Assembly: GCA_032718475.1 (NCBI GenBank)
Contig: JAUCBJ010009081.1
Location: 1 to 64,000, forward strand
Direction of reading: 5' to 3'
DNA: 64,000 nucleotides
Source of the DNA: Nemertoderma westbladi
Taxonomy: Eukaryota > Animalia > Xenacoelomorpha
The translations under genes and the position numbers were made by a program. Numbering within the stretch: the first letter of the stretch is position 1; the number at the start of each line of letters is the position of its first letter. Of this stretch, positions 1-26,258 are shown piece after piece. The notes below the pieces were generated by a model. The model was not told the origin of the DNA, did not search any database, and saw nothing but the letters and a program-made list of their open reading frames with translations.

Positions 1-1
1 A

Positions 2-328
2 GTAGGTGGTGTAATATACGAGCCTAATTTTACAGATGGAACATATATTTTTGAGTATACTCAATTAATGAAGAACATTAATACATATATTAACGGTTAT
101 GGAGGTAATAATATAGACCATGAAACCTACTTAGGTAATTGCCCCCTCCTATCCTGGGACCTAACCGCCGATGGCTATGTTAGAGATCCGCAACCGTCGA
201 TATATACTAACGGCCAATTAAAATTAAGATTTGCCGAACCGTTGGTTGAAACCATAAATGTAATCGTTTTTAATATTTATGATCAATCATTAAGTTTAAA
301 TAGCAGGAAAGAAATACATATCGATTAA
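2..328 (+). CDS. Maverick major capsid protein, C-terminal part (5'-partial)
   Basis: Frame open from base 2. WDLTAD...GQLKLRFAEPLVETINVIVFNIYDQSLSLNSRKEI resembles the Polinton MCP C-terminus (FDLTPD..LRLELKFAEALxETxNVIVY). Lies immediately upstream of the protease. Confidence 0.8.
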   Translation, partial: VGGVIYEPNFTDGTYIFEYTQLMKNINTYINGYGGNNIDHETYLGNCPLLSWDLTADGYVRDPQPSIYTNGQLKLRFAEPLVETINVIVFNIYDQSLSLNSRKEIHID

Positions 329-330
329 GT

Positions 331-786
331 ATGTTATCTACAGAGGACCTTGATATGTTTCCAGTGGGTGGTCACTATTTGGGTGCGTTTCCAGCTAATA
401 AATCACCTAAATTAGATAATAATAATAAGCGAAGAGATTATGGGTTAATAGTAAATACCGATAAAGAGCATCTGCCTGGGATTCATTGGATCGCAATATA
501 TATACGAGATAATGAGGCTGAAATATTTGATTCATTCGGATCAAAATATCCAAACAGATGCATCGAAAAATGGCTTGAGAAAAATTCCGCAAGATGGCGT
601 ACTTCTCGCAAACAATTTCAAGACCCAAGGAGGACCACATGCGGTCTATACTGTCTTTATTACTTGGTAAATCGAATTCACACAAACTATCCAATGAGTG
701 CGTTTACAAATAATGTGGAAATAAATGAAATAATATTATATAAATGGCTTGTTAATTATTATAAAATAAACCAACAAGCGTTGTAA
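331..786 (+). CDS. Adenain-like cysteine protease (Maverick PRO)
   Basis: IVNTD..GIHW (His), FDSFG (Asp), Q.Q....TCGLYC (Gln, Cys): catalytic motifs in the adenoviral protease order. Confidence 0.92.
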   Translation: MLSTEDLDMFPVGGHYLGAFPANKSPKLDNNNKRRDYGLIVNTDKEHLPGIHWIAIYIRDNEAEIFDSFGSKYPNRCIEKWLEKNSARWRTSRKQFQDPRRTTCGLYCLYYLVNRIHTNYPMSAFTNNVEINEIILYKWLVNYYKINQQAL

Positions 787-817
787 TTAATCATTTAACT
801 TTTGTTTATCAGATAAA

Positions 818-1420
818 ATGGATAATATTATTTTTGTTGATTTTCAATATTATAAGATAGACAATAAGGAGTATCCGGTAGTATTTAAAGAATTTGCTAT
901 ATTCGATTCTAATTACACCAAAACTAATGTAAAGACGTTTTTAATTAAAGGCCCCCCTAATATTAAATTATCAGCTTTAGATGTAGCTCACGTAAACAAT
1001 TTACGAGACATGACTTCTCATTTGCCTTGGGACTACGGTGACATTTCGCAAATTGACTTTAAAAAATATATGAAGAGACATTTAAAATATAAAAAAAATA
1101 TATATGTATTTGGGTTGCTGAAACGGGCAATATTAGTTTCCCAACTTTATGTTCTCGCGCCAAATTCGATGGAGAAATTGGGAATATATAAGCAATATCA
1201 CGATTATTTAACCCCTTGTCGCTTCCACGATCAATTTACTACAGTAGAAAATAAATGTGCGTTCCACTTAAACATAAGGGATAACTGTCTGCGATACTGC
1301 TCAGCAAAACGCGTAGGGGGGTATGAGATGCTACGATTTTTCATGAGAAAGCGTTTAACTGCGACTGTTGATGATAAACAGAAAGAAATAACTGCGGTGG
1401 AAGATGTACTCATACAGTAG
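818..1420 (+). CDS. Maverick accessory protein, probable DnaQ/DEDD-like fold
   Basis: IIFVDFQ...KEFAI, LPWDYGD, IYVFG..K and C-terminal C..H..CA motifs recall a Polinton-associated exonuclease-like family. Followed by AATAAA near 1506. Confidence 0.55.
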   Translation: MDNIIFVDFQYYKIDNKEYPVVFKEFAIFDSNYTKTNVKTFLIKGPPNIKLSALDVAHVNNLRDMTSHLPWDYGDISQIDFKKYMKRHLKYKKNIYVFGLLKRAILVSQLYVLAPNSMEKLGIYKQYHDYLTPCRFHDQFTTVENKCAFHLNIRDNCLRYCSAKRVGGYEMLRFFMRKRLTATVDDKQKEITAVEDVLIQ

Positions 1421-1460
1421 GTTTAACTGCGGTGGAAGATGTACTCTTACAGTAGGTTTA
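1390..1460 (+). repeat. 35-bp tandem duplication across the stop codon of ORF 818-1420
   Basis: aactgcggtggaagatgtactc(a/t)tacagtaggttt occurs twice in tandem. Confidence 0.85.
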
Positions 1461-2134
1461 CTCTAAGCTTGTAATGTGATGGGATAATATATTTGTTTTA
1501 ATGTCAATAAAAAATAATAAAAACATTAAAATCTTTTTTTATATCGCTGTTTACACTCACAAACACACCACACCTACCGGTAGCCCTCTGTTGTATCAGA
1601 GTTTAACTACCAGTAGCTAGCTGACTTTACTCATACAGACATATAGAATGGCAGAATGGCGCCCTTCTAGACTGACAGCAACCACAAGGCTTTAGCACAA
1701 GGCTTACTAAATAATAAAATTAAATTAACTCAACATGGAGGGTTCGTGAATGCCGCATTAGAGAGGCCCTCCTAACAATAGGCCTACTGGTACCGACAGC
1801 CCTGTAGCCCTCTTCCAACTGTATACTGGTACTTGAGGATAGAGCAAGGGCATACCGGTTTCTTTGATTTAAGGATTACACTATTACACTTGAATGCTTC
1901 CAATTTTCTGTTTACAACTTTAATTGGTCTAATCTACATTACTGCGGGCTACTACTGTTGCATAGGTAAGCCTATACAGCTATAGTTAACTTTATGCGGG
2001 GCCCTTTTTCGCATGTTGACCCAATATGGTTTACGGTTAACCTGTAGTACTCGCGGATAGGTAAGGTGCACTTTCATTCGGTTAGGCCTATAGGCCTAAT
2101 GACTACTCCTCAACTGAAAGTTGACTAGCTCATT

Positions 2135-2400
2135 GATACAATAGGTGTGGTTAGGTACCGGTAGCGCTATTGGACCTATAAAATCCCCTCGCACTCTCTG
2201 TTACTAACTTTCAACATTCACTTTATGACAGTATGTTGTATGCTATACCGTTAACCTTTAGAACTCTTGGTTAGGGGCGCCATCATTCAACCAGTCATAT
2301 AATGGCTCCACTCGGATACAATAGGTGTGGCTCGCGGTATACCTAACTAAGCCTATATAAAATCCACCCCATTCTCTGTTACTAACATTCACTCTATGTT
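2135..2400 (+). promoter_or_regulatory. Two related TATA-containing promoter-like modules
   Basis: GATACAATAGGTGTGG...CCTATA(TA)AAATCC...CTCTGTTACTAAC...ACATTCACT at about 2135-2225 and 2316-2398. Confidence 0.4.
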
Positions 2401-2556
2401 GACGGGACTATATAAAACATAGTTAGTTTATTTATGTATTCGCTTTTTTTAATTAGATATAAAATATAAAATATACAATACAATATAAAAACCTACTGAT
2501 ACCGGTAACATACGTGACTAATTATATAGGCCTATGAGTCTACCTGCTATACGAGT

Positions 2557-2910
2557 CTACTGACGTATTCTCGGATCAGATGGAAGTAGTAGAGTTGGTG
2601 TTGGAACTGGAGCTGCTGCTAAATCTTCATGTTCACCCCAGTTCTCTCCCCTACTATAATTGTCTAGACTTATCTGATGCGCCGCTCCAGGTTGAACTCT
2701 AACGTTTAAATTGAAGTTTTTATTGGTCGTCAATGTGGTTTGGTGACCTTGGCTGCCGCTGGTTTTATTTTTAATCATTATTGTTATTTCACCGTTGTTG
2801 TTTTTTAAATGTAATTCAGTTACATTTAATGAAGTGAAATAAAGGTCGTCTCCATCAACATCAAATTTTAATAAACAGTCGTCGCTATTTTCAATGAAAG
2901 AAAATGCCAT
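2557..2910 (-). CDS. Hypothetical Maverick protein (117 aa)
   Basis: ATG-started ORF inside the element with natural composition; no recognised motif. Confidence 0.45.
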   Translation of the reverse strand: MAFSFIENSDDCLLKFDVDGDDLYFTSLNVTELHLKNNNGEITIMIKNKTSGSQGHQTTLTTNKNFNLNVRVQPGAAHQISLDNYSRGENWGEHEDLAAAPVPTPTLLLPSDPRIRQ

Positions 2911-3659
2911 CTTGGATGTCGGTGTTGGATGTTGGATGTCGGAACTGAAGTTTGTTGATTGATAGAGAAGGATTTTCGGAACTGAAGTTGGTTGAGGTTA
3001 GTTTTTTTTTTTTTTCAAATATGAAGATAAGTTAGGCCTAGTCTATACCGGGATTTATTTTTTTATGTTACGGTAGGGAAACAAAATTATAGTTCACTGT
3101 CAGAAAAATTGAGTTTATATATATTTTTGTAGAGGGTCGCAGATGTGTACATTACAAAATTCTCATAGTTAACAAAATGCACAACATAAACCTTTCCCAG
3201 GCGGATTAGCGATATATGCTCTGTTCGTTGTTCTATTCTGAATGTAGGGAGATGCATAGCCGATGTTTTAATGATATGTACCGGTATACAGACTAGTAAC
3301 AGATAGGAGGGCATCGTCTTTGACTATGAATACCAGCACATAGCCCTAATCTTTTCTCACCGAGCTTAGCGTTGCCCGCCGCACTCACGCACACTCATAA
3401 GTAACAGATGCGCTATTGTAACTCACTCGTGAGCAACAATGCCAAGTTAGGTAGCTAGCTACAGCCCCTGAGTATACTATGCCTACTTGAGTGTTACAAG
3501 CAGCAATCGCTCTACCAAAGTTAATTTCCCCTCAAACTAGTTGTTGATTTTAAAAAAATATTCATAATTTTTTTCCAGCCAATTTAATATATATATATAT
3601 ATTTTACAGTAAAAATCTCCACCACCAAACAGCAACAACAACAATAAATTTCACTCACA

Positions 3660-4241
3660 CTAATTATATTTTACAACAAAAACCCTCGCACCAAACAATA
3701 ATAAATTATTAACCAGTTTGTTGAATATAGGATAATATATATGAAATTTAAACGGGGAACACATTAATGTACATTTACCGGTGTAGAAGCAGCAAACAAC
3801 AACATTATTATTTATTCTGACTTTACAGTTATTGAATATTTCAGGCTCGTATGAAATTTCTAGTTTAACATTATCAAATATAACATAAAACCCGATATTG
3901 TTTATAAGTAACCTATAAATTACGGTATCTATACTAAAAATATAAGTACACAAATTGATTGATTTAAAAATCAAATTAATGTTTGTTTTTTCGAATATAT
4001 GCTTTTTCACTTTATTAAAATTATATTTTCTACCGAGAATTGTTATTCGACCATTTGTAAACATTAATATGGTTGCACCAAATACCTTATATATAAACTG
4101 ATTAGGTTTGAGTACAATTTTACCAGTCAATTGATTTTTTAATTCTTTTAAATTAAGTCCATAAATGATCTGCTTACAACTTATATTTTTATTTACTATT
4201 TGATAATTCATCATCAATACCATCGTCTTTTGGTTCTTCAT
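3660..4241 (-). CDS. Divergent TATA-binding-protein-like protein encoded by the Maverick
   Basis: Two TBP-type repeats: YQIVNKN..LNLKEL...ATILMFTNGRITILG (cf. TALIFSSGKMVCTG) and SYEPEIFNNCKVRINNNVVVCCFYTGKCTLM (cf. SYEPELFPGLIYRM..IVLLIFVSGKVVLTG). About 185-190 aa, the size of the TBP core. Confidence 0.8.
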   Translation of the reverse strand: MKNQKTMVLMMNYQIVNKNISCKQIIYGLNLKELKNQLTGKIVLKPNQFIYKVFGATILMFTNGRITILGRKYNFNKVKKHIFEKTNINLIFKSINLCTYIFSIDTVIYRLLINNIGFYVIFDNVKLEISYEPEIFNNCKVRINNNVVVCCFYTGKCTLMCSPFKFHIYYPIFNKLVNNLLLFGARVFVVKYN

Positions 4242-7200
4242 AAATTGGTATATTTGATATTTTTATAGGTTTTTTGAGGTTTGTTTTATAGTGCCCCCAA
4301 GGAAGCGAATGATTTTTATTAACCCAATAAAGTTTATCGTCAAAGCTACTGAGTGCAAATTTATTTTGCTTTAAGGTATAAATACGATGTAATTTAGATT
4401 GAAATCTGTGTATGTTTTTTTTTATTTCTTCATTTGAGTTATATGCTTTTAAATATTCTTCATGTGTAATATTCGTTTCCACAACAGCTCTTGTAATACC
4501 TTTTGCTCTACGAATATTTTTGTTATTCCATTCCAAAATTGAATATAATTTTGGTCTTAAAAATACTGCTTGTTTAATTTCACGTGAGGCTAGTTCGTCT
4601 TTACAGTAATTGAGTTGGGATTTATTTTTATCGCTGTAGAGAGGGTGATCCATAGGGTAATTGGAAGTATCTAAAATATTATTTTTAATTAATGCTTTTA
4701 AAAAATTATTCTGCGATGTATTATAGTAACAACCTATTAAAAGAGTCTGTGTCTGATGCAGCAATTTTCAATACGACAGTTTTAATTCTTTCTCAATAGG
4801 TAGCAATTTATTGTAGAAACAGCTCATACATATCCAATTTAGCCAAGTCCAAACACAGCGCTACCAATAAAATATAGGCTTATCGAGAGTTTACAGAGTC
4901 TTTCACTAATAAAATGTCCCGATAATGTATTATTGTATATTATAAATTGTTTCATGATTAATACGATTTACCAATTGATCGCATTTATCATTGCTATTTT
5001 GCGATACGAAAAGTTTACATCGATCTCTTATCTTTTCTATTGATTTGCCAAACAGTGAATTATTGAGCAATTTCGCGACAGCAGTTTTCAATGTAACTTT
5101 TTTGCTAGGCGCCCTTTGATTAATATTAAAAATCTATGTAATTTTTAAATACAAATTCTTGTTGAAAAGAATATAATTTATGTAGTTTAGTAACAATTAA
5201 TCCATGTTTTATATAAAATTTTAACAGTTTCAAATGTAAATGATAAAACTCTTTATCAAATTGCGTCAGCAAGAGTTTTGGTGTAGGCATCCTATATTTA
5301 CGGGAGGTACCTCTTTGTATCGATAAATTATTAAATTGTTCCCTCATATAAGGTGAAAGCATTGATTCATTTATACTTAAATGCTCTGGAGCTAACGGTA
5401 ATTGTAATGTTTGATTGTGAATAGCTTTAGGATAATTTAAATCACATATTAAAAAATATCCAGTAGATCCATCAATGTCTAAATCTACCAAGTACTCGAT
5501 TAGTTTTTCTGGAATTGCATTCTCTAAATGTTTAATACTTACTTCTTTGAATTGCGAGGTGGGTAGTTTTTTACTTAAATTCCCTGAATATAAAGAGTTG
5601 AAATCAATATTAAAAATATGGCATTCTTCCTTAGTAGAATCATATGTACTTGTTCCTGGTATATTTGATTCTATATAATGCTTTCGACAAAATGAAACAC
5701 CACCCCTAATTGATTTTTCAAAATCTCTATATGTCTGATAATCCTTTATTAATTCTATTTTACATTTATTATATTTTAGTGCGCAATCATAGGTAAATGA
5801 CGCGATACTACAGTAAAAAACCACTTCTAAATCGTAATTTTGTTTACAAACATTCCTAAAATTCTCAAATATATCAGCAAGCAAACAAACATCGAGTTTT
5901 AAATAGGCTAAAAGATAATCTTTGAGATTCACACAGTCGAATTCAACCCATGATAATTCCGCAAACCTATAATCTTCAATTGTACATGTTTTTTGACTTA
6001 AGTTACTAAAAAAATTATTTATAGATGGCAAACTAGTATCATTAAATTTATTAATATCTGTCAAGTACTCGTATGGAAATACTCCTTTCCGTTTAATTGT
6101 TGAGTTATTCAAGTTTGGATAAAAATATTTCATTTCTTGTAGAGTAATAGGTAAAATTGAGCTTATATCATGACTCGCTACATCCTTTGTTGAACACTCA
6201 ACTAAATTACTTAAAGAAAAGCTTAAAAATTGATATGTGTCCAAGAAACGTAACTCAATTTTTTTAGAAGTGTTTTTAATTGGGATAAATGCACTCAGTG
6301 AAATATATCGTTCTGTATTTCTCGGTATAACCTTTATATCCCAATCTGTGTATTTCTTATCTCTAAATCCTGGTTTGTAATATACAATGTATATCGTAGT
6401 TGTTGGAATTGTGCCCGCAAAGTACATACAGGTATCGTTTCAATGATAAACTTCGGTTACAACTATTACAGGCTGCCGCAATATATTTACCAGTAATATG
6501 TGAATGGTGTCTGTTTTTCCCAACATTATTATTTAAAGTAACATTACAATAGAAACAGAATTTTGCTTGTTCAAAATTTACAAAATCAATATTAGTAAAT
6601 GACATGGTTTTATGAGTGTATATGTCTGACCAACAACATAATTCAGTTAAATCAGTATATAATGAATCTAAGAAATCTTGAATACAATTATTATTATTAT
6701 TTGTCTTTACAAATGTTTTCAAATGACATTTTGGTGGGTCAATTAATTCAGTATTGGGAACAATTAAATAACTCACAGCACACGGTATATGCTCCTGTAT
6801 AAATTGATTATTAACTGAAGGTTGTAAGATACATTCTATATCAAAGTAGGTGACAAACAATGGGGATAAGGTTCTATCTAAATTTGTAAAACTAATGTGT
6901 GTTCTTTTTTTATTAGGTAGTTTCTCGCGCTGACTTCTTCCTTGGTAGCATACGAGACGGTGTCGATGAAGAACTTCCGCTCGAAAAAAATGAGCCAAGC
7001 ACCTTTCACAAAATTGCCTACCTCGGGTATGAAGAGCTCTCGTATTCAGCAATCGATTCAAGTTAGTTATGCAAACATAATGATTCAGTTTAGGTACATT
7101 GTTATTTTTTACTACAAGTAATATATTTAATAACTGTTTATCAGGTGTAATTTTACTAAACGGAGGTTGTCTTAATATAGATACAGGAGTGTGTTTGTTG

Positions 7201-8267
7201 TCGTTATTCCAACATAGTAAATTAATTATATATTTTGAATTTTGTTTTTCAAAAAGTTTAATCGCTAACTGCCACTCTGTTGGATAATCTTTGTTCCCAT
7301 TGTCAAAAATGAAATGACTCATATAATTTTTGTACAATGAAGTATGGTTTTTGTTGTTTTTCACTTTGCTACCAAATTTTGCGGATATAATAGCCCATTT
7401 GAAACAATCATTATCAGCTGTTTGTATATTTATTGTACATTTTTTAGCTGATAAAGCCTTAGGTAATTCCATATATCCATGCCCCTTATATAGTAACGAC
7501 CTACACTTAGATTCAGCTAATTTAATTTCAACCCTTAATAAAGATTTAATACGCCACCCCGAACCACGTGTGTTAAAGATGGCTATTTTTTGTAATATAT
7601 TTCCCAGCACATACTCAAACCATGTGTCAAAACTTTGCAGTGAATCTACAGTATTAATAGCACCACCGGAAGAATTAAAATGAAAGGTTTCCAATTGCTC
7701 GCCTTCTGAAAAATGTGATCTGTACATTAATACATTTAGACCTAACCACAGTCTAAGAACATTCATTTCTTTCAATCTATCTAATATTAACTGAAGAATA
7801 TTACCTCGAATTTGTGCTAATGCTGTTTCTACATCGGGATAATCTCTAGAAGTTGGGAGGTCGTGGACATAAATTTCAAGACGATTATCGTGAGCTTCTT
7901 GTTCCCGCGTAAAAATTGTTGCGCATGTACCAAGAGCCACCCTTAAGTTTTTTCTGGATATTATATTTTTATGTTGCGGAAATTTACTCTTTCTTGTGTA
8001 GTAACATTTCAAGTGACAGTCGTGTCGTATATAATTCTCATATGTATACTCTTTATTACAGGTAGAACAAGTCAATTGATAGGTGCGGAACTCCATTTCT
8101 TTACAACCAGTAGTTGATTCATGTCGTTTACAAATTTCGCTGCATGAAGTCACGACATGACACTTAAAACAAGAATAACCTTCAAAATGTGACCGTAGGT
8201 GGCGTAAGTAATTATGTCTAGTTACATTCATATGACAGAATGAACAACATATTGTTATTTTATCCAT
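4189..8267 (-). CDS. Protein-primed family B DNA polymerase (pPolB), split by several frameshifts
   Basis: N-terminal Zn-finger motifs, GSGW/CFKWAI, YFDIEC (ExoI), endonuclease VII-like C..C..HSHITGKY..AACNSCN, HNSNNYD (ExoII), KGVFPYEY, YLKLDV, SIRGG, DFNSLY (motif A), KLLNNSLFGK (motif B, about 5045-5075), SDTDS (about 4745-4760), LRPKLYS, AKGI. Frameshifts near 6375, 5128 and within 4740-4940. Confidence 0.92.
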
Positions 8268-8459
8268 GTTGAAGTTTGTTTAGATAAATAATAATAATAA
8301 TAATAATAATAAAATATGTCCAAAGATTAAAATAAAATGAAATGATATGATATTGACTATATCTAAACATTTATATGCTAGCGAGGGAAATAATTTTAAA
8401 CCAATCACCAATCGCTTATGGCTATTGGAAACCACAAAGAGTTTAACTTATGATTAGGT

Positions 8460-9525
8460 TTACATATTAGGATAATAATCAGGTTTCCATGGAGAATTAG
8501 TAACAGGCTCTACTAGAACTGGGTTACTGACAACTTTCTGTTTCTTTGCAGGTGATGCGGTGGTAAATTTACTCGATGATCTTGGCTTCCGAGGTAATAT
8601 TTCAGGAAAGACCTGTTGCGGTTGAGAGCAACTCTCTTCAACATCCGGATTAGGTGATGGGATCTCTACGAATGCTTTAGGTTTATCCAAAAGGACAAAA
8701 CCGTCAACACGGGCTTCAGTAAGAGAAACGCCATCCATCGATTCTTTGAGAAAACTAATATGGGCTTTATCATTCAAGTAATGCAACTCGATAGAATTTC
8801 CGCCGGCACCTACTTCAGTAGAATTATCGGTGTTGGTGATAATAATTTTTTTATTATTGGTTTTAATCATTTTGAGACGGTCTGATAATTGAATGATATT
8901 TTTATCAAAAAGATGCTTGTCTGTTTCATCGACTTGGTTGTCCCACTCTCGCAACAAAACGGATAGTTCCTGTTTTGACAAATTGAAACCCGTATAATAG
9001 TTAAAACCAACACTATCAGCGTATCTGAGGCTGATTTTCCATAAGCCAACATAGTTGGTTCCTTTAAAAGCTGTTACAAATCCAATAAACTCTGGATTTG
9101 ATAATTCAATGTAGAATTGATCGCTAATAATCTCTAGCGGTGGAGAGAGAAATTGCAATAATTTCCCTCTGTATTGAATTAGAACTTCAGTAAAAGCTTT
9201 GTTGAGAACTTTACATTTGCCTTGTTTCTGAACGTAAACATCACCCGATGTGGGGTTGATGGAAATATTCAAATTTCCCCGCGCAAAACGAAGAGTGGGA
9301 TATATCCTACCTGGTATAATTGCTGGTCTGGATTGATGTTGGTTGTTGTTGGTTGTTTCTAGAATGTCTAACAGATAGCGGAAAAACAATATGGGAAAAA
9401 CAAATTGATTCGTTGTCCACCTGAGATTCCACAATAAAATACTTGCTGTGAACGACGGTACAAGTATATTTATTGTAAGTAAATTTCCAGCTATTTGTTG
9501 CTCCGGTTTTTTGCGTTAAGGCCAT
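8460..9525 (-). CDS. Maverick protein with a PC4/Sub1-like ssDNA-binding domain; probable start at ATG 9525 with a frameshift near 9380
   Basis: FVTAFKGTNYVGLWK...TGFNLSKQELSVL resembles PC4 (VSVRDFKGKVLIDIREY...KGISLNPEQWSQL). C-terminal basic NLS-like PAKKQK. Confidence 0.55.
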
Positions 9526-9949
9526 AATAATAATAAATACGAAAAATATTACAAGTGATAAATTTTAAACCGTATCGCTGTAATAAATTGACACCATAGT
9601 TCTCACTCTAAAATTGTGTTTGGTAAAACGATAGAGAAAATAAGAGATCACATTTCTCGTTTCTATTAGTAATTAATTAGCAAAGAAAAATGCAATCTTG
9701 TATCTTCTCTATTGTTTTACCAATTTTTTTTACTGGTTTTACAACTCCAATGTTGGAATCAGTATCATTTATTTGAGTGTATGATTTTCCGACCAACGAA
9801 TATACAACGAGTAAGATAATGAAGAAATTATTAAGGAAATAACATAATTTCAGAGTGAGAACAAAAAAAATTAGATATGGTATCAATATATTACCATGAA
9901 GATTACAAGTGATGAATTTTATTAAAAACATTCAGTTATATATAAATTT

Positions 9950-10632
9950 GCGATGTGGCATAGTCAACGAAGAAGAGATGGGACGTGTCATAATCATCAA
10001 CGAATAAGAAAAGAGATGGGGTGCAACGTGGATGAATGGTTGGTTGGTTGGTTACGTGGATAGGAAATATGTGAAAGAATATGAATCATAGGGTTGTGTG
10101 TAATAATAATCAATAATTATAATAAAAACGCACAGTATAATGTTAGTAGTAGTAGCCTTTCAATATGACACAGATGCTGCGGGATCGGTTAGCTTGAGTA
10201 ACTACTATGGAAATGCTCGTATACGCGTAGTTGACACGAGGCGGAATTTCATGCACATGTATCATACTGAGTGGTTGGTTTGTTGGTTTGGCGACGGCTG
10301 TCGTGGAGTTGGCAATCGATATAATATAATATATGCGCGATGCGAGTAGTTGGTGGCCACGTCGTCGTTGTCGCCAACATATACAGTATACAGCGGTGGT
10401 GGTGGTGATGACGTGGTGAAAAGGTGAATAACATTAGGGTTAGGGTTAGTTAGTTAGGCTACGCTACGCTACGATTGGTTGATGGCAACTGCCGATCGAT
10501 GGATGGTGACAGATGTGGCGCGCACCGCAATTTAGCACCGGAATTTGGCATTTTTTAATAGCCCTCCGAATGGAATGTGCATAGCCCAGGCTTAGGGAGG
10601 ACTATGTTGGGGGCCATGCTTTATCTACTACT
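9950..10632. repeat. Probable right terminal inverted repeat of the Maverick (inner boundary uncertain)
   Basis: Non-coding G/T-skewed region with short tandem motifs (TGGT)n, (TTAGGG)2, (CTACG)3, ending ACTACT. The partner TIR is not in the window. Confidence 0.6.
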
Positions 10633-11491: not shown

Positions 11492-11647
11492 TAATTCGCT
11501 GATATTGGATTTGCGTCAATTGCCCCCGTTCCTTACAATTCTCTGCGATGTGATTGTATAAATTTATATGTAACAACTCGCTACGAAGTCTCACCGGAAT
11601 GAAGTTGAAATTTTAGATAAATAAATAAATAATTCTTTGAAACTAAC

Positions 11648-11800
11648 TTGCATTCCTTGACCAGCAGTTTGGTAATAAAGTCCTTGGCTTCGTCTGATAT
11701 GCAATCAAATTCCTCAGCGTCGAAGTCCCATGCTGCCATGGTTACATTGCACAAGGTCTCCGTGTCAGTGTCTCCCATAAAAGGTGACAATCCGCTCAAC
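11648..11800 (-). CDS. MYLK: MLCK-type kinase exon 6 (subdomains IX-XI)
   Basis: tttag|G TTG AGC GGA...: LSGLSPFMGDTDTETLCNVTMAAWDFDAEEFDCISDEAKDFITKLLVKEC, donor AA|GTTAGT; phase 2-2. Confidence 0.92.
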
Positions 11801-11826
11801 CTAAATATATTAACCATTACAATCTG

Positions 11827-14800
11827 ACCGAACTTAGAGAACATAAGTTATGTAAACAATCCGTATATCCCCTAAACCAAACTTACAGAACATAAGTTAT
11901 GTAAACAATCCGTCTATCCCACCTAAACCGAACTTACAGAACATAAGTTATGTAAACAATCCGTCTATCCCCTAAACCAAACTTACAGAACATAAGTTAT
12001 GTAAACAATCCGTCTATCCAACCTAAACCAAACTTACAGAACATAAGTTATGTAAACAATCCGTCTATCCCACCTAAACCGAACTTACAGAACATAAGTT
12101 ATGTAAACAATCCGTATATCCCCTAAACCAAACTTACAGAATATAAGTTATGTTAAATAATCCGTCAATCCCACCTAAACCGAACTTACAGAACATAAGT
12201 TATGTAAACAATCCGTCTATCCCCTAAACCAAACTTACAGAACATAAGTTATGTAAACAATCCGTCTATCCAACCTAAACCAAACTTACAGAACATAAGT
12301 TATGTAAACAATCCGTCTATCCCTTAAACCAAACTTACAGAATATAAGTTATGTAAACAATCCGTCTATCCCCTAAACCAAACTTACAGAACATAAGTTA
12401 TGTAAACAATCCGTCTATCCAACCTAAACCAAACTTACAGAACATAAGTTATGTAAACAATCCGTCTATCCCACCTAAACCGAACTTACAGAACATAAGT
12501 TATGTAAACAATCCGTCTATCCCCTAAACCAAACTTACAGAACATAAGTTATGTAAACAATCCGCCTATCCAACCTAAACCAAACTTACAGAACATAAGT
12601 TATGTAAACAATCCGTTCATCCAACCTAAACCGACCTTACAGAACAAAAGTTATGTAAACAATCCGTTTATCCAACCTAAACCAAACTTACAAAACATAA
12701 GTGATGTAAACAATCCGTTTATCCAACCTAAACCGAGCGTACAGAACATGAGTTATGTAAACAATCCGTCTATCCCCTAAACCAAACTTACAAAACATAA
12801 GTTATGTAAACAATCCGTTTATCCAACCTAAACCAACCCTTAGAGAACATGAGTTATGTAAACAATCCATTTATCCCTTAAACCGAACTTACAGAACATA
12901 TGTTATGTAAACAATCCGTCTATCCCCTAAACCAAACTTACAGAACATAAGTTATGTAAACAATCCGTCTATCCCCTAAACCAAACTTACAGAACATAAG
13001 TTATGTAAACAATCCATTTATCCCCTAAACCGAACTTACAGAACATAAGTTATGTAAACAATCCGTTTATCCAACCCAAACCAAACTTACAGAACATAAG
13101 TTATGTAAACAATCCGTCTATCCAACCTAAACCGAGCGTACAGAACATGAGTTATGTAAACAATCCGTCTATCCCCTAAACCAAACTTACAAAACATAAG
13201 TTATGTAAACAATCCGTTTATCCAACCTAAACCAAACTTAGAGAACATAAGTTATGTAAACAAGTCGTTTATCCAACCTAAACCAACCTTAGAGAACATA
13301 AGTTATGTAAACAATCCATTTATCCCTTAAACCGAACTTACAGAACATAAGTTATGTAAACAATCCGTTTATCCAACCCAAACCAAACTTACAGAACATA
13401 AGTTATGTAAACAATCCATTTATCCCCTAAACCGAACTTACAGAACATAAGTTATGTAAACAATCCGTTTATCCAACCCAAACCAAACTTACAGAACATA
13501 AGTTATGTAAACAATCCGTCTATCCAACCTAAACCGAGCGTACAGAACATGAGTTATGTAAACAATCCGTCTATCCCCTAAACCAAACTTACAAAACATA
13601 AGTTATGTAAACAATCCGTCTATCCAACCTAAACCAAACTTACAAAACATAAGTTATGTAAACAATCCGTCTATCCCCTAAACCAAACTTACAGAACATA
13701 AGTTATGTAAACAATCCGTCTATCCAACCTAAACCGAGCGTACAGAACATGAGTTATGTAAACAATCCGTCTATCCCCTAAACCAAACTTACAAAACATA
13801 AGTTATGTAAACAATCCGTTTATCCAACCTAAACCAACCCTTAGAGAACATAAGTTATGTAAACAAGTCGTTTATCCAACCTAAACCAAACTTACAGAAC
13901 ATAAGTTATGTAAACAATCCGTCTATCCAACCTAAACCAAACTTACAGAACATGAGTTATGTAAACAATCCGTCTATCCCCTAAACCAAACTTACAGAAC
14001 ATAAGTTATGTAAACAATCCGTCTATCCCCTAAACCAAACTTACAGAACATAAGTTATGTAAACAATCCGTCTATCCCCTAAACCAAACTTACAGAACAT
14101 AAGTTATGTAAACAATCCGTCTATCCCCTAAACCAAACTTACAGAACATAAGTTATGTAAACAATCCGTCTATCCAACCTAAACCAAACTTACAGAACAT
14201 AAGTTATGTAAACAATCCGTTTATCCAACCTAAACCAACCCTTAGAGAACATAAGTTATGTAAACAAGTCGTTTATCCAACCTAAACCAAACTTACAGAA
14301 CATAAGTTATGTAAACAATCCGTCTATCCAACCTAAACCAAACTTACAGAACATGAGTTATGTAAACAATCCGTCTATCCCCTAAACCAAACTTACAGAA
14401 CATAAGTTATGTAAACAATCCGTCTATCCCCTAAACCAAACTTAGAGAACATAAGTTATGTAAACAAGTCGTTTATCCAACCTAAACCAAACTTACAGAA
14501 CATAAGTTATGTAAACAATCCGTCTATCCAACCTAAACCAAACTTACAGAACATAAGTTATGTAAACAATCCGTCTATCCCCTAAACCGAACTTACAGAA
14601 CATAAGTTATGTAAACAATCCGTTTATCCAACCTAAACCAACCCTTAGAGAACATAAGTTATGTAAACAAGTCGTTTATCCAACCTAAACCAAACTTACA
14701 AAACATAAGTTATGTAAACAATCCGTTTATCCAACCTAAACCAAACTTACAAAACATAAGTTATGTAAACAATCCGTTTATCCAACCTAAACCAACCCTT

Positions 14801-17800
14801 AGAGAACATAAGTTATGTAACAATCCGTCTATCCCCTAAACCGAACTTACAGAACATAAGTTATGTAAACAATCCGTCTATCCCCTAAACCGAACTTACA
14901 GAACATAAGTTATGTAAACAATCCGTTTATCCAACCTAAACCAACCCTTAGAGAACATAAGTTATGTAAACAAGTCGTTTATCCAACCTAAACCAAACTT
15001 ACAAAACATAAGTTATGTAAACAATCCGTTTATCCAACCTAAACCAAACTTACAAAACATAAGTTATGTAAACAATCCGTTTATCCAACCTAAACCAACC
15101 CTTAGAGAACATAAGTTATGTAACAATCCGTCTATCCAACCTAAACCGAACTTACAGAACATAAGTTATGTAAACAATCCGTCTATCCCCTAAACCGAAC
15201 TTACAGAACATAAGTTATGTAAACAATCCGTTTATCCAACCTAAACCAACCCTTAGAGAACATAAGTTATGTAACAATCCGTCTATCCAACCTAAACCGA
15301 ACTTACAGAACATAAGTTATGTAAACAATCCGTCTATCCCCTAAACCGAACTTACAGAACATAAGTTATGTAAACAATCCGTTTATCCAACCTAAACCAA
15401 CCCTTAGAGAACATAAGTTATGTAACAATCCGTATATCCCCTAAACCAAACTTACAGAACATAAGTTATGTAAACAATCCGTCTATCCCACCTAAACCGA
15501 ACTTACAGAACATAAGTTATGTAAACAATCCGTATATCCCCTAAACCAAACTTACAGAACATAAGTTATGTAAACAATCCGTCTATCCCACCTAAACCGA
15601 ACTTACAGAACATAAGTTATGTAAACAATCCGTCTATCCCCTAAACCGAACTTACAGAACATAAGTTATGTAAACAATCCGTTTATCCAACCTAAACCAA
15701 CCCTTAGAGAACATAAGTTATGTAAACAATCCGTCTATCCCCTAAACCAAACTTACAGAACATAAGTTATGTAAACAATCCGTTTATCCAACCTAAACCA
15801 ACCCTTAGAGAACATAAGTTATGTAAACAATCCGCCTATCCAACCTAAACCGAACTTACAGAACATAAGTTATGTAAACAATCCGTCTATCCAACCTAAA
15901 CCAACCCTTAGAGAACATAAGTTATGTAAACAATCCGCCTATCCAACCTAAACCAAACTTACAAAACATAAGTTATGTAAACAATCCGTCTATCCCCTAA
16001 ACCAAACTTACAGAACATAAGTTATGTAAACAATCCGTCTATCCCACCTAAACCGAACTTACAGAACATAAGTTATGTAAACAATCCGTCTATCCCCTAA
16101 ACCGAACTTACAGAACATAAGTTATGTAAACAATCCGTTTATCCAACCTAAACCAACCCTTAGAGAACATAAGTTATGTAAACAATCCGTTTATCCAACC
16201 TAAACCAACCCTTAGAGAACATAAGTTATGTAAACAATCCGCCTATCCAACCTAAACCAACCCTTAGAGAACATAAGTTATGTAAACAATCCGTCTATCC
16301 CCTAAACCGAACTTACAGAACATAAGTTATGTAAACAATCCGTTTATCCAACCTAAACCAAACTTACAGAACATAAGTTATGTAAACAATCCGCCTATCC
16401 AACCTAAACCAACCCTTAGAGAACATAAGTTATGTAAACAATCCGTCTATCCCCTAAACCAAACTTACAGAACATAAGTTATGTAAACAATCCGTTTATC
16501 CAACCTAAACCAAACTTACAGAACATAAGTTATGTAAACAATCCATTTATCCCCCAAACCAAACTTAGAGAACATAAGTTATGTAAACAATCCGTCTATC
16601 CAACCTAAACCAAACTTACAGAACATAAGTTATGTAAACAATCCGTCTATCCCCTAAACCGAACTTACAGAACATAAGTTATGTAAACAATCCGTCTATC
16701 CCCTAAACCGAACTTACAGAACATAAGTTATGTAAACAATCCGTTTATCCAACCTAAACCAAACTTACAGAACATAAGTTATGTAAACAATCCGCCTATC
16801 CAACCTAAACCAACCCTTAGAGAACATAAGTTATGTAAACAATCCGTCTATCCCCTAAACCAAACTTACAGAACATAAGTTATGTAAACAATCCGTTTAT
16901 CCAACCTAAACCAAACTTACAGAACATAAGTTATGTAAACAATCCATTTATCCCCCAAACCAAACTTAGAGAACATAAGTTATGTAAACAATCCGTCTAT
17001 CCAACCTAAACCAAACTTACAGAACATAAGTTATGTAAACAATCCGTCTATCCCCTAAACCGAACTTACAGAACATAAGTTATGTAAACAATCCGTTTAT
17101 CCAACCTAAACCAACCCTTAGAGAACATAAGTTATGTAAACAATCCGTTTATCCAACCTAAACCAACCCTTAGAGAACATAAGTTATGTAAACAATCCGC
17201 CTATCCAACCTAAACCAACCCTTAGAGAACATAAGTTATGTAAACAATCCGTCTATCCCCTAAACCAAACTTACAGAACATAAGTTATGTAAACAATCCG
17301 TTTATCCAACCTAAACCAAACTTACAGAACATAAGTTATGTAAACAATCCGCCTATCCAACCTAAACCAACCCTTAGAGAACATAAGTTATGTAAACAAT
17401 CCGTCTATCCCCTAAACCAAACTTACAGAACATAAGTTATGTAAACAATCCGTTTATCCAACCTAAACCAAACTTACAGAACATAAGTTATGTAAACAAT
17501 CCATTTATCCCCCAAACCAAACTTAGAGAACATAAGTTATGTAAACAATCCGTCTATCCAACCTAAACCAAACTTACAGAACATAAGTTATGTAAACAAT
17601 CCGTTCATCCAACCTAAACCGACCTTACAGAACAAAAGTTATGTAAACAATCCGTTTATCCAACCTAAACCAAACTTACAGAACATGAGTTATGTAAACA
17701 ATCCGTCTATCCCCTAAACCAAACTTACAGAACATAAGTTATGTAAACAATCCGTCTATCCCCTAAACCAAACTTACAGAACATAAGTTATGTAAACAAT

Positions 17801-20800
17801 CCGTCTATCCAACCTAAACCAAACTTACAGAACATAAGTTATGTAAACAATCCGTCTATCCAACCTAAACCGAGCGTACAGAACATGAGTTATGTAAACA
17901 ATCCGTCTATCCCCTAAACCAAACTTACAAAACATAAGTTATGTAAACAATCCGTTTATCCAACCTAAACCAAACTTACAGAACATAAGTTATGTAAACA
18001 ATCCGTCTATCCAACCTAAACCAAACTTACAGAACATAAGTTATGTAAACAATCCGTCTATCCCCTAAACCAAACTTACAAAACATAAGTTATGTAAACA
18101 ATCCGTTTATCCAACCTAAACCAAACTTACAGAACATAAGTTATGTAAACAATCCGTCTATCCAACCTAAACCAAACTTACAGAACATAAGTTATGTAAA
18201 CAATCCGTTTATCCAACCTAAACCAACCCTTAGAGAACATAAGTTATGTAAACAATCCGTCTATCCAACCTAAACCAAACTTACAGAACATAAGTTATGT
18301 AAACAATCCGTTTATCCAACCTAAACCAACCCTTAGAGAACATAAGTTATGTAAACAATCCGTCTATCCAACCTAAACCAAACTTACAGAACATAAGTTA
18401 TGTAAACAATCCGTTTATCCAACCTAAACCAACCCTTAGAGAACATAAGTTATGTAAACAATCCGCCTATCCAACCTAAACCAAACTTACAGAACATAAG
18501 TTATGTAAACAATCCGTTCATCCAACCTAAACCGACCTTACAGAACAAAAGTTATGTAAACAATCCGTTTATCCAACCTAAACCAAACTTACAGAACATG
18601 AGTTATGTAAACAATCCGTCTATCCCCTAAACCAAACTTACAGAACATAAGTTATGTAAACAATCCGTCTATCCCCTAAACCAAACTTACAGAACATAAG
18701 TTATGTAAACAATCCGTCTATCCAACCTAAACCAAACTTACAGAACATAAGTTATGTAAACAATCCGTTCATCCAACCTAAACCGACCTTACAGAACAAA
18801 AGTTATGTAAACAATCCGTTTATCCAACCTAAACCAAACTTACAGAACATGAGTTATGTAAACAATCCGTCTATCCCCTAAACCAAACTTACAGAACATA
18901 AGTTATGTAAACAATCCGTCTATCCCCTAAACCAAACTTACAGAACATAAGTTATGTAAACAATCCGTCTATCCAACCTAAACCAAACTTACAGAACATA
19001 AGTTATGTAAACAATCCGTTTATCCAACCTAAACCAACCCTTAGAGAACATAAGTTATGTAAACAATCCGTTTATCCAACCTAAACCAACCCTTAGAGAA
19101 CATAAGTTATGTAAACAATCCGCCTATCCAACCTAAACCAAACTTACAGAACATAAGTTATGTAAACAATCCGTTCATCCAACCTAAACCGACCTTACAG
19201 AACAAAAGTTATGTAAACAATCCGTTTATCCAACCTAAACCAAACTTACAGAACATGAGTTATGTAAACAATCCGTCTATCCCCTAAACCAAACTTACAG
19301 AACATAAGTTATGTAAACAATCCGTCTATCCCCTAAACCAAACTTACAGAACATAAGTTATGTAAACAATCCGTCTATCCAACCTAAACCAAACTTACAG
19401 AACATAAGTTATGTAAACAATCCGTCTATCCAACCTAAACCGAGCGTACAGAACATGAGTTATGTAAACAATCCGTCTATCCCCTAAACCAAACTTACAA
19501 AACATAAGTTATGTAAACAATCCGTTTATCCAACCTAAACCAAACTTACAGAACATAAGTTATGTAAACAATCCGTCTATCCAACCTAAACCAAACTTAC
19601 AGAACATAAGTTATGTAAACAATCCGTTTATCCAACCTAAACCGAGCGTACAGAACATGAGTTATGTAAACAATCCGTCTATCCCCTAAACCAAACTTAC
19701 AAAACATAAGTTATGTAAACAATCCGTTTATCCAACCTAAACCGAGCGTACAGAACATGAGTTATGTAAACAATCCGTCTATCCCCTAAACCAAACTTAC
19801 AAAACATAAGTTATGTAAACAATCCGTTTATCCAACCTAAACCAACCCTTAGAGAACATAAGTTATGTAAACAAGTCGTTTATCCAACCTAAACCAAACT
19901 TACAGAACATGAGTTATGTAAACAATCCGTCTATCCCCTAAACCAAACTTACAGAACATAAGTTATGTAAACAATCCGTCTATCCCCTAAACCAAACTTA
20001 CAGAACATAAGTTATGTAAACAATCCGTCTATCCAACCTAAACCAAACTTACAGAACATAAGTTATGTAAACAATCCGTCTATCCCCTAAACCAAACTTA
20101 GAGAACATAAGTTATGTAAACAAGTCGTTTATCCAACCTAAACCAAACTTACAGAACATAAGTTATGTAAACAATCCGTCTATCCAACCTAAACCAAACT
20201 TACAGAACATGAGTTATGTAAACAATCCGTCTATCCCCTAAACCAAACTTACAGAACATAAGTTATGTAAACAATCCGTTTATCCAACCTAAACCAACCC
20301 TTAGAGAACATAAGTTATGTAAACAAGTCGTTTATCCAACCTAAACCAAACTTACAGAACATAAGTTATGTAAACAATCCGTCTATCCAACCTAAACCAA
20401 ACTTACAGAACATGAGTTATGTAAACAATCCGTCTATCCCCTAAACCAAACTTACAGAACATAAGTTATGTAAACAATCCGTCTATCCAACCTAAACCAA
20501 ACTTACAGAACATGAGTTATGTAAACAATCCGTCTATCCCCTAAACCAAACTTACAGAACATAAGTTATGTAAACAATCCGTCTATCCAACCTAAACCAA
20601 ACTTACAGAACATAAGTTATGTAAACAATACGTCTATCCCTTAAACCAAACTTACAGAACATAAGTTATGTAAACAATCCGTCTATCCCTTAAACCAAAC
20701 TTACAGAACATAAGTTATGTAAACAATCCGTCTATCCAACCTAAACCAAACTTACAGAACATGAGTTATGTAAACAATCCGTCTATCCCCTAAACCAAAC

Positions 20801-24620: not shown

Positions 24621-25472
24621 GACTATCTACTACAGTAATGAACACCTCTAAAATGTTATAATGTTAATGCTGTAATGTTAATGGTCTGGTTTGTACTGAC
24701 TGTATTACTGCATGGTAGACACATTTATAGCCTTTATACAGTATAAGTAGTTAGGCAAACTCTGCAAGATACATTTCAGTAGAGAATCGAAAGGCGATTC
24801 CAATGGTACCAAAAGTTTTACTTCAAATTTATTTGGTAAGAAGTTCTAAAGAATCTAAAGTCATTACAGCAGTGGACATTACTGCTTTTTACATTTTCGG
24901 CTTATTTTATTTACCTGCAGCCAATCCCGCTAAAATGGTTAGAGAGTCGTTACTTTTAGAAAGAACTAAGTTGAATGAAATAAAATCACCCTCAGCAAAG
25001 AAAAAAAAAAGCATTGGCATCTTAGCATCTTAGCGTACAGCAAAATAAAATAAATATAACAATAAACAAAAATAAAATAACAAGCTATATAACATTGGTG
25101 TGAGAAAGTTGTCAAAAAAAATAACAAATACAGTCCCAATCCCAATAAACATTAACTTGGTCGTTTTGGCGGCCAAAATGACCAAAATCACCAAAAAAAT
25201 GTAGTGTATTCCTATGGGCTACTTGGTCGTTTTGGCGAAGCGATTTAACTCGAATCAGCTCAATCCAGACAGTCTGTCTCCTTGGCCATCCATTTGGTGG
25301 ATCTGACTAAATGTCGGCTCGCTTTCATTTTTATTATTGACAGATTGTTAACTTACCCGGCGCTGAGCCTTGCAGTACTGGAGTCCGCCCACTGAGGCAT
25401 TGATAGAGTACACAGTCTTATAAAAGGAGTTGAATGGGGCTTCGTTAAAGGAGGAGTATGTATAATAATCTA

Positions 25473-25776
25473 AACGTCCCGAAATTAATTTATGGACGTC
25501 CCGAAATTAACTTATGGACGTCCCGAAATTAACTATATGGACGTCCCGAAATTAACTTATGGACGTCCCGAAATTAACTATATGGACGTCCCGAAATTAA
25601 CTTATGGACGTCCCGAAATTAACTTATGGACGTCCATAAATTAATTTATGGACGTCCCGAAATTAATTTATGGACGTCCCGAAATTAATCTATCCACCAA
25701 TCTGAATCGTAATGAAATAACTAATTAATGGACGTCCATAAATTAATTTCGGGATGTTAATTTCGGAAATTAATTT
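25473..25776. repeat. 22/23-bp palindrome-rich minisatellite with an inverted terminal copy
   Basis: ggacgtcccgaaattaa(c/t)ttat about 10 times; GGACGTCC core; inverted copy at about 25728-25757. Confidence 0.85.
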
Positions 25777-25847
25777 GCAATAATATTTTTTTTATAATAA
25801 AAATTTTTTTTAATATTTTTTACAATGTATAATTCGCGGACACTGCG

Positions 25848-26258
25848 GGGTGACTACAAAACAAAGACCCAATTATAAAGACCTGCATAATCTTGTTACA
25901 TGTGTTAACTTTCGTTAATTGTTTTGAATCCCCCGTCACGCCTCTGTAACTTGCTCCTTTACTAACCTGCTCCTTTAAATAGCAATGGTACATAACGCTC
26001 ATTGTGACCTGTACAAAACAAAGAGGTAAAGTCGCGTTACGTCCCAAAGAGCGTTAGGTTCCAAAGAGCTTTAGGTCCCATTGCCAGAGAGCGTGAGGTC
26101 ACATCAGCACATTGCCATTTAAAGGAGCAGGTTAGTAAAGAAGCAGGTTAAAGAGGCGTGTTGGGGAACCAAAACAATAAACGAAAGTTAACACATGTGT
26201 TTTGTATTTGTACAGGTCTTTATTATTTGGGTCGTTGGTCTTTGTTTTGTAGTCACCC
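25848..26258. mobile_element. Mutator-like MITE, long imperfect TIRs, 9-bp TSD
   Basis: GGGTGACTACAAAACAAAGACC...GGTCTTTGTTTTGTAGTCACCC with about 140-bp arms, flanked by GACACTGCG at 25839-25847 and 26259-26267. Confidence 0.85.

What the first reader, a model, noticed from the sequence alone, without database searches (positions are those of the whole stretch)
3660..4241. Maverick encodes its own divergent TATA-binding-protein-like factor, overlapping the pPolB 3' end
Seen in sequence: an intact intronless ORF with both TBP repeat signatures (ILMFTNGRITILG and SYEPEIF...CFYTGKCTL), co-oriented with pPolB and overlapping its end by up to 53 bp. Established knowledge: the Polinton core set is pPolB, integrase, ATPase, protease and two capsids; TBP homologues are well known from giant nucleocytoviruses but are not a Polinton core gene. 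Inference: it may redirect host Pol II to element promoters, for example late capsid genes, or act as a TFIID decoy.
Basis: partly seen in the sequence, partly recalled or inferred. Interest (0 to 1): 0.8.

Follow-up and report, generated by a model that had tools for sequence, protein, structure and literature searches.

The report
Maverick element's own TATA-binding protein
A virus-like Maverick element in an animal genome carries an intact, selectively conserved gene for its own much-altered TATA-binding protein, which likely steers the host's RNA polymerase to the element's particle-building genes through a non-standard promoter word seen in a related element.

Summary
Confirmed. Minus-strand ORF 4241-3660 (193 aa) is a real two-lobed TBP homologue (Pfam PF00352 E 1e-6; all 12 Foldseek hits at E<=1e-3 are TBPs). 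It overlaps the 3' end of a frameshifted pPolB in a Maverick beside an animal kinase exon. Sister-copy contigs show no indel or stop in it, and 24 synonymous versus 17 non-synonymous differences (pN/pS about 0.2). Two related Polintons from the same pPolB clade (support 99) also carry a TBP downstream of pPolB, and 46 further proteins form the family. Three of four DNA-kinking phenylalanines and the TFIIB-binding acidic stirrup are kept; the first phenylalanine is likely Arg/Lys. In the most complete relative, TTAAGC lies 38-93 nt before six consecutive capsid-block genes (4 of 352 ORFs in other loci). Best reading (0.55): a private promoter factor that recruits host TFIIB/Pol II to late genes; binding and transcription are untested, and this element's own late promoters mostly lie outside the window. 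Print holds only a figure label 'TBP' for MELD viruses. This scan already noted Maverick TBPs, some with boxes, on other DNA. New variant of a known kind.

The parts
3660..4241 (-). TBP-like gene, 193 aa from the first ATG (187 aa from Met7 at 4223)
   Evidence: sister-copy variation
4189..4653 (-). last piece of the broken pPolB (stop-to-stop frame 4767-4192); overlaps the TBP start
   Evidence: resembles by eye the C-terminus of the L044 pPolB
4933..5133 (-). short open piece of pPolB (KLLNNSLFGK, polymerase motif named from recall)
5126..6427 (-). middle piece of pPolB (433 aa)
   Evidence: 87 homologues at E<=1e-3, many carrying PF03175; tree
6363..8267 (-). N-terminal piece of pPolB (634 aa)
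   Evidence: matches pPolB ORFs of fetched loci down to E 7e-49
4261..4290 (-). two TATAAAA words 50 and 27 nt upstream of the first TBP ATG, inside pPolB coding sequence; candidate host-type promoter of the TBP gene (weak: AT-rich, partly dictated by coding)
2..328 (+). C-terminal end of the putative major capsid protein (runs off the window)
   Evidence: matches the 429-aa ORF before the protease in L044, E 4e-13; no Pfam hit
224..329 (+). three TTAAG words before the protease ATG (at -107, -41 and -6; the last includes the capsid stop codon); candidate late box
   Evidence: two in the -110..-15 window against 0.09 expected, P 0.004, one gene only
331..786 (+). adenain-like maturation protease
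   Evidence: Pfam Peptidase_C5 E 6.8e-6; L044 protease E 5e-20
818..1420 (+). 200-aa ORF of unknown function
   Evidence: no family hit
2135..2398 (+). two 180-bp-spaced modules (GATACAATAGGTGTGG ... TATAAAATCC ... CTCTGTTACTAAC ... ACATTCACT) with no ORF behind them
   Evidence: no Rfam match
2557..2910 (-). 117-aa ORF of unknown function
8460..9515 (-). 351-codon open frame upstream of pPolB, unknown function
   Evidence: no hit
10627..10632 (-). probable right terminus (AGTAGT, the Polinton end word, recalled); the other end lies outside the window

Best explanation
The gene encodes the Maverick's own divergent TATA-binding protein, kept intact by selection, which likely binds a non-standard TATA-like box before the element's capsid-block genes and would recruit host TFIIB and RNA polymerase II there through its retained acidic stirrup. 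Shown: TBP homology, an intact frame under purifying selection, presence in a pPolB clade, retention of F116/F190/F207 and the YEPE stirrup, and a TTAAGC word before the capsid-block genes of the relative L044. Inferred: that the first phenylalanine (yeast F99) is replaced by Lys/Arg; that this altered N-lobe reads the G-C end of the box; that the gene is made early with pPolB from a host-type promoter and switches on late genes; that this window's element uses a TTAAG-type box too.
For: TBP identity; model from 49 rows pLDDT 72.8, 12 of 12 Foldseek hits at E<=1e-3 are TBPs, N-lobe superposes at 2.4-2.9 A over about 80 residues. Selection: no indel row in the ORF in 4 runs; 24 synonymous, 17 non-synonymous, 0 stop among 41 listed differences, pN/pS 0.17-0.25, P 2e-8 to 9e-6; none of the non-synonymous ones hits N17, K45, P46, F61, P133, E134, F136 or F152. 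Lineage: 2 of 105 pPolB loci carry a TBP (L044, L037), both downstream of pPolB and both in the 7-row clade with the window's pPolB, SH-aLRT 99; 46 more family members. Residues among 48 relatives: F116 46, F190 47, F207 47, E186 46, E188 47 of 48; F99 column Arg in 41 of 41 that cover it. Ravarani 2020 names the two glutamates as the TFIIB contact and says viral TBPs have usually lost them (PMC7221094, passages), so keeping them with no TFIIB gene in sight points to host TFIIB. Box: in L044 all 6 minus-strand TTAAGC copies lie 38-93 nt before six consecutive capsid-block genes; 7 of 14 ORFs against 4 of 352 in 35 other loci, and 0 of 100 random window sets scored as well; L037 has it at -40 of the same gene as L044; the window's protease has TTAAG at -107 and -41.
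Against: No binding or expression data. The box rests on one near-complete element and was found after looking; 7 other loci of 36 also had an upstream-enriched hexamer at empirical P<=0.05 (AT-rich words). The window's element has no TTAAGC before any of 8 ORFs, and its late-block starts, bar the protease, lie outside the window; L044's own protease lacks the word. One L044 copy sits at -22, too close for a TATA position. The window's protein is an outlier: median 21% identity to the family, branch 8.7, odd composition; it has lost P191 and T215/G216, which nearly all relatives keep, and its N159 register is ambiguous. The model did not close the saddle (whole-protein rmsd 8-13 A, pTM 0.52, residues 96-108 under pLDDT 50) and leans on an alignment of TBP-like rows. 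L026, in the same clade, shows no TBP in its 5.8-kb contig. The genomic context of the 46 further proteins is unknown.
Confidence: 0.55

Rival explanations
1. A general TBP substitute: it binds ordinary TATA boxes and boosts all element promoters while escaping host regulators (Mot1/NC2/TAF1), with no late-specific box.
For: The window's element has canonical TATAAA words before 3 of 8 ORFs (P 0.047) and two TATA modules at 2135-2398; viral TBPs lose the N-lobe regulatory signature (PMC7221094, passages).
Against: TBP-less Polintons show canonical TATA words as often, so host TBP seems to suffice for these; the fixed F99-to-Arg change and the L044 box point to altered specificity.
Confidence: 0.17
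2. A decoy: it soaks up host TFIIB or TFIID partners to damp host transcription or antiviral genes and binds DNA weakly or not at all.
For: The stirrup is the best conserved surface; F99 is lost in the family, and P191, T215 and G216 in this protein.
Against: Three intercalating phenylalanines and N69 are nearly invariant, which a pure decoy would not need; the L044 box needs a reader.
Confidence: 0.12
3. A DNA-bending accessory factor of replication or packaging that travels with pPolB and has no role in transcription.
For: It sits in the pPolB block in all three elements and is strongly basic (net +19); bacterial TBP-lobe proteins bind nucleic acid outside transcription (PMC7221094).
Against: The TFIIB-contact glutamates would not need to be kept; the candidate box lies before genes, not at termini.
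Confidence: 0.1
4. Decaying or neutral cargo: a once useful or host-captured TBP now drifting in this lineage.
For: Very long branch, AT-biased composition and loss of residues that relatives keep; this copy's pPolB is broken.
Against: pN/pS about 0.2, no stop or indel among sister contigs; GC and GC3 match the element's genes, not the host ORFs of the window.
Confidence: 0.06

Closest known systems
'TBP'-labelled gene in MELD viruses with adintovirus-like PolB (Starrett et al. 2021, PMC8502044, Fig. 5 legend; seen: passages, text parts 2-3 of 6, search of the one supplement held; figures not visible)
   Same: A TBP-like gene beside an adintovirus-type pPolB in a midsize linear dsDNA element.
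   Different: Only a legend label in the section on non-animal datasets; no residues, distribution, selection or promoter are discussed in the parts read. Which element carries it could not be seen.
Beta/gamma-herpesvirus TBP mimic, KSHV ORF24 with the TATT late box (PMC12529657; seen: abstract and first part of Results)
   Same: Viral TBP domain paired with a non-standard box before late genes, using host Pol II.
   Different: ORF24 is 752 aa with Pol II- and ORF34-binding domains, keeps all four phenylalanines, lacks the TFIIB glutamates and needs five partners. The Maverick protein is a bare 190-aa core, keeps the glutamates and has likely lost F99.
TBP-like proteins of giant and other large dsDNA viruses (Ravarani et al. 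2020, PMC7221094; seen: passages; BFVD hits)
   Same: Two-lobed viral TBP with conserved DNA-contact phenylalanines.
   Different: Those are described as having diverged TFIIB-contact residues and often their own TFIIB; here the contacts are kept and no TFIIB gene was seen among the ORFs scanned. No BFVD match reached E 1e-3 (best 2.5e-3).
Cellular TBP (PF00352; PDB 1ytb, 1mp9, 1ais, 3eik)
   Same: Two repeats, N69, F116, F190, F207, SYEPE stirrup.
   Different: 14-21% identity in structural alignments; F99 likely Lys; P191, T215 and G216 changed; no long N-terminal tail; intronless.
VLTF3-like late transcription factor in some polintoviruses (PMC11131425; seen: passages)
   Same: Polintons carrying their own transcription factor.
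   Different: Unrelated protein family; that paper's main text has no mention of TBP or TATA.

Membership tests
TBP family (PF00352) | Two TBP repeats, score above the curated cut-off | tested here: met
   28.6 bits against 22.9, two stretches
TBP family (PF00352) | Each lobe has the TBP helix-grip fold | tested here: met
   N-lobe rmsd 2.4-2.9 A over about 80 residues; TBPs fill the top ranks; the model used an alignment of TBP-like rows
TBP family (PF00352) | Closed two-lobed saddle | tested here: inconclusive
   whole-model rmsd 8-13 A, pTM 0.52, linker under pLDDT 50
Canonical TATA-binding TBP | Four intercalating phenylalanines (F99, F116, F190, F207) | tested here: not met
   F61, F136, F152 kept; the F99 column is K45 here and Arg in 41 of 41 relatives. 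An alternative register with F49 needs a 3-residue gap and is not favoured
Canonical TATA-binding TBP | Asparagine pair N69/N159 | tested here: inconclusive
   N17 matches N69; N159 falls on N115 or L97 depending on the alignment
Canonical TATA-binding TBP | TFIIB-contact acidic stirrup (E186, E188) | tested here: met
   E132 and E134; many sister contigs have the conservative Asp at 132; 46 and 47 of 48 relatives
Canonical TATA-binding TBP | Binds and bends TATA DNA | not testable with these tools
   needs EMSA or a structure
Polinton/Maverick | pPolB | tested here: met
   broken in this copy
Polinton/Maverick | Adenain-like protease and major capsid protein | tested here: met
   (capsid by homology to L044 and position only)
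Polinton/Maverick | rve integrase and packaging ATPase | not testable with these tools
   outside the window, no genome held; present in the relative L044
Polinton/Maverick | Terminal inverted repeats and 6-bp target-site duplication | tested here: inconclusive
   one end with AGTAGT at 10632; no partner arm in the window
Herpesvirus vTBP (ORF24/BcRF1/UL87) | Large multidomain protein with Pol II-binding N-terminal domain | tested here: not met
   193 aa, core only against 752 aa
Herpesvirus vTBP (ORF24/BcRF1/UL87) | TFIIB-contact glutamates absent | tested here: not met
   kept; absent in ORF24
Herpesvirus vTBP (ORF24/BcRF1/UL87) | Cognate non-standard box before late genes | tested here: inconclusive
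   seen in L044; only one late gene start in the window
Giant-virus TBP-TFIIB pair | Element encodes its own TFIIB | tested here: inconclusive
   no TFIIB hit among 9 window ORFs or 12 L044 ORFs, but both elements are incomplete
Host TBP paralogues (TRF2/TBPL1, TRF1, TBPL2) | Nests among host paralogues in a tree | not testable with these tools
   no cellular TBP sequence could be obtained; the family tree leaves this protein unplaced

The most novel reading that the evidence does not exclude
One Polinton clade runs a minimal private late-gene switch: a bare 190-aa TBP whose N-lobe is retuned (F99 to Arg/Lys) to read a TTAAG(C) box and which docks host TFIIB unaided, a third solution beside the six-protein herpesvirus complex and the giant-virus TBP-TFIIB pair, and a sign that these animal Mavericks have an early-late programme like true viruses.
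Probability: 0.4. Interest if true: 0.8.

Novelty: new variant of a known kind. Interest (0 to 1): 0.62.

Why it matters
How Mavericks/Polintons time their capsid genes is poorly known, and whether animal copies act as viruses is a standing question. A conserved element-encoded TBP with a matching box gives a concrete, small and testable switch: one protein, one hexamer, one host partner. It would also be a natural altered-specificity TBP that still plugs into host TFIIB, which bears on how TBP reads DNA. If only the gene is real and the box is not, it remains a little-described accessory gene family of at least 49 proteins.

Tried and rejected
Single-protein searches found no relative: 0 of 95 candidates, 0 in 1.84 billion representatives, 0 in viral contigs; relatives came only through pPolB neighbourhoods. 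The fold without an alignment was poor (pLDDT 34, no Foldseek match at E<=1e-3). The ESM Atlas gave no answer. No genome is held for the window. PF00352 in 6 held virus records of 25 asked: 0 of 6. Genome contigs returned no locus. L106/L107 hold a giant-virus-type gene with a TBP-like N-terminus, not a Polinton gene. The TBP tree is uninformative for this protein (long branches meet, careful search unfinished; 3 fragmentary rows left out). No RNA holder listed; X5 is only guessed to be RNA. The 200-aa and 351-codon window ORFs could not be tied to L044's neighbours of TBP. No Rfam match in 1400-3700. No complex prediction was sent: the host's TFIIB is not on hand. Rejected: chance match, host retrocopy (low identity, element-like GC, relatives in Polintons), pseudogene. 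Literature searches that found no paper treating a Polinton TBP beyond the Starrett legend; figures and most supplements of that paper, and the preprint's supplements, could not be seen and may show more.

Full report
Observation. The ORF lies on the minus strand, 4241-3660, 193 aa, without stop or intron. The quoted motifs are there, and the first ATG overlaps the last pPolB piece (4653-4189) by 53 bp. Pfam TBP scores 28.6 bits (cut-off 22.9, E 1.2e-6, two stretches); NCBIfam archaeal TBP models give E 6e-4 to 0.08; the three best PDB sequence hits are a microsporidian TBP. Met7 has the better start context, and two TATAAAA words lie 50 and 27 nt upstream inside pPolB; in DNA this AT-rich that is a weak hint only.

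The element. Window 1-10632 holds one arm of a Maverick: end of the putative capsid gene and an adenain-like protease on plus, two unknown ORFs, then TBP, pPolB and a 351-codon frame on minus, and an AGTAGT end word (recalled as the Polinton terminus) at 10632. Next to it is an exon of a myosin-light-chain/DAP-type kinase (E 4e-15), so the host is likely an animal. pPolB is broken into at least four frames. Sister contigs from four runs cover 25-30 of 30 bins of 2400-8400, and 10 of the 12 indel rows shown (74 in all) fall in the pPolB span; whether the breaks are decay of this copy or assembly error cannot be told.

Selection on the TBP frame. On 3650-4250, 501, 103, 3 and 3 contigs of runs X1, X3, X4 (organism A) and X5 (organism B) were laid; no indel reached the 5% listing threshold. 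Of 41 listed differences (40 of the 57 rows, plus one), 30 are at third codon positions, 24 synonymous, 17 non-synonymous and none a stop; pN/pS is 0.17-0.25 for kappa 1-4. Rows are not independent events (several ride on one divergent contig) and 17 were not shown, so the P values (2e-8 to 9e-6) overstate, but the direction is clear.

Relatives. Direct searches with the protein found nothing. Going through pPolB, 105 loci were fetched; 2 of 105 hold a TBP-like ORF (L044, L037; Pfam E 5e-12 and 5e-13). In both it follows pPolB on the same strand after two small ORFs, and in L044 the capsid and protease genes face it from the other strand as in the window. On a quick IQ-TREE of 110 pPolB rows (97 of the 105 loci passed a length filter, plus 12 database proteins and the window) the window, L044, L037, L026, L036, P0002 and P0003 form one clade, SH-aLRT 99. 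L026 and L036 are short contigs and show no TBP; the contexts of P0002 and P0003 are not known. Most other loci are fragments too: 31 are 10 kb or more and 9 hold three or more other core genes, so absence is a lower-grade result. A three-row alignment then found 46 more proteins, 45 with precomputed PF00352 and none named; their contexts could not be fetched. The window's protein is the outlier, median 21% identity against 47% within the rest, but a profile without it finds it at E 6e-9 among 497 window frames, and it shares the derived K/R-P and F-x-N-G-x-I-x-I-L-G motifs. The TBP tree cannot place it.

Structure and residues. Folded with 49 rows, the model has pLDDT 72.8 and pTM 0.52. All 12 Foldseek hits at E<=1e-3 are TBPs; the unbiased wide search ranks TBPs 1-3 (Z 8.4-7.3, a range that unrelated folds can also reach). 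The N-lobe superposes at 2.4-2.9 A over about 80 residues, but the two lobes were not closed into a saddle, and the alignment of residues 93-130 is ambiguous. Using yeast numbering (PMC12529657 Table 1) and my own mapping of columns: N69, F116, F190, F207, E186 and E188 are kept here and in 40, 46, 47, 47, 46 and 47 of 48 relatives; the F99 column is Lys here and Arg in all 41 that cover it; P191, T215 and G216 are kept by 45-47 relatives and changed here. Ravarani et al. name the two glutamates as the TFIIB contact and report that viral TBPs have diverged there and often bring their own TFIIB (PMC7221094, passages); KSHV ORF24 lacks them. No TFIIB hit came up among the 9 window ORFs or 12 L044 ORFs scanned.

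A candidate box. Earlier notes of this scan on other genomes suggested looking for a shared word before late genes; I tested that on my own loci. In L044, TTAAGC precedes 7 of 14 ORFs of 100 aa or more. All 6 minus-strand copies lie 38-93 nt before six consecutive genes of the ATPase-integrase-capsid block, one of them a 59-aa ORF; two plus-strand copies lie at -43 and -22. None of 100 random window sets gave as strong a best hexamer, and the word precedes 4 of 352 ORFs in the 35 other loci with seven or more ORFs, 0 of 79 in the eight that hold three or more other core genes. Against: 7 of those 35 loci also have some enriched, AT-rich hexamer at P<=0.05; L044's protease lacks the word; this is one element. 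L037 has it at -40 of the gene that carries it in L044. In the window, no ORF of 8 has TTAAGC; the only late-type start present, the protease, has TTAAG at -107 and -41 (0.09 expected, P 0.004).

Mechanism. Most likely (0.55) the gene is expressed with the pPolB block from a host-type promoter, and the protein binds the element's own box and hands it to host TFIIB and Pol II, giving a late phase. The C-lobe of TBP reads the first half of the box (P191 favours T at position 1) and the N-lobe the second half (recalled from TBP-DNA crystal structures); the family's change is in the N-lobe and the box departs from TATAAA most at its G-C end, which fits but is inference. Rivals: general TATA booster (0.17), TFIIB/TFIID decoy (0.12), replication or packaging accessory (0.10), decaying cargo (0.06).

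Known and new. Viral TBPs are known from giant viruses, poxviruses and herpesviruses (listing only, 64, 86, 97). For Polinton-like elements I found only a legend label in Starrett et al. (PMC8502044 and its preprint; passages, text parts 2-3 of 6, one supplement searched without a hit); eight searches found no paper that treats the gene, and unseen figures and supplements may hold more. The scan's own notes list eight earlier Maverick-TBP findings on other genomes, unchecked, and none by sequence likeness to this protein or to P0089. It works like the herpesvirus late TBP mimic but is not a member of that family; it is a TBP-family protein but fails the four-phenylalanine test of canonical TBP. 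Verdict: real, a new variant of a known kind, interest 0.62.

Noticed in passing
window 2135-2398 (+): Two 180-bp-spaced modules with a shared 16-mer, a TATAAAATCC word and a shared downstream tail, but no ORF of 20 aa or more behind them on that strand and no Rfam match; possible promoters of short RNAs.
   Followed up: partly
window 8463-9515 (-): 351-codon open frame upstream of pPolB whose first in-frame ATG is only at 8870; no family hit; by eye it recalls single-strand-binding (PC4-like) proteins, untested.
   Followed up: partly
window 9599-9862: A 46-nt near-perfect hairpin (9620-9723) nested in a 22-nt inverted pair, near the element's end.
   Followed up: no
window 11581-11844 (-): Exon of a myosin-light-chain/DAP-type kinase; the Maverick end lies about 1 kb downstream of it, perhaps in an intron.
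   Followed up: partly
window 11827-23765, 36668-48259, 55122-60977: Three large satellite arrays with units of 51, 36 and 41 bp (238, 321 and 143 copies).
   Followed up: no
window 25129-27347: A 2.2-kb stretch bounded by 67-nt inverted repeats, with an inner 22-bp tandem array and nested inverted repeats; looks like a non-autonomous DNA transposon.
   Followed up: no
window 28980-30257 (-), 48684-49682 (+), 51028-51855 (+): An ankyrin-repeat ORF and two fibrinogen C-terminal domain ORFs, host-type genes.
   Followed up: no
L044 1130-2686 and 9017-10525 (+): Two long paralogous ORFs (E 7e-78 to each other) whose ends match a shorter gene of many Polintons, probably penton-like genes with large insertions.
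   Followed up: no
run X5 on window 2400-8400: Contigs filed under a second organism label match the element mostly at 95-99%; a sister species, horizontal transfer or contamination.
   Followed up: no
L107 9686-11386 (+): A giant-virus-type contig with a 566-aa ORF whose N-terminus is TBP-like (SYEPEIFPG).
   Followed up: no
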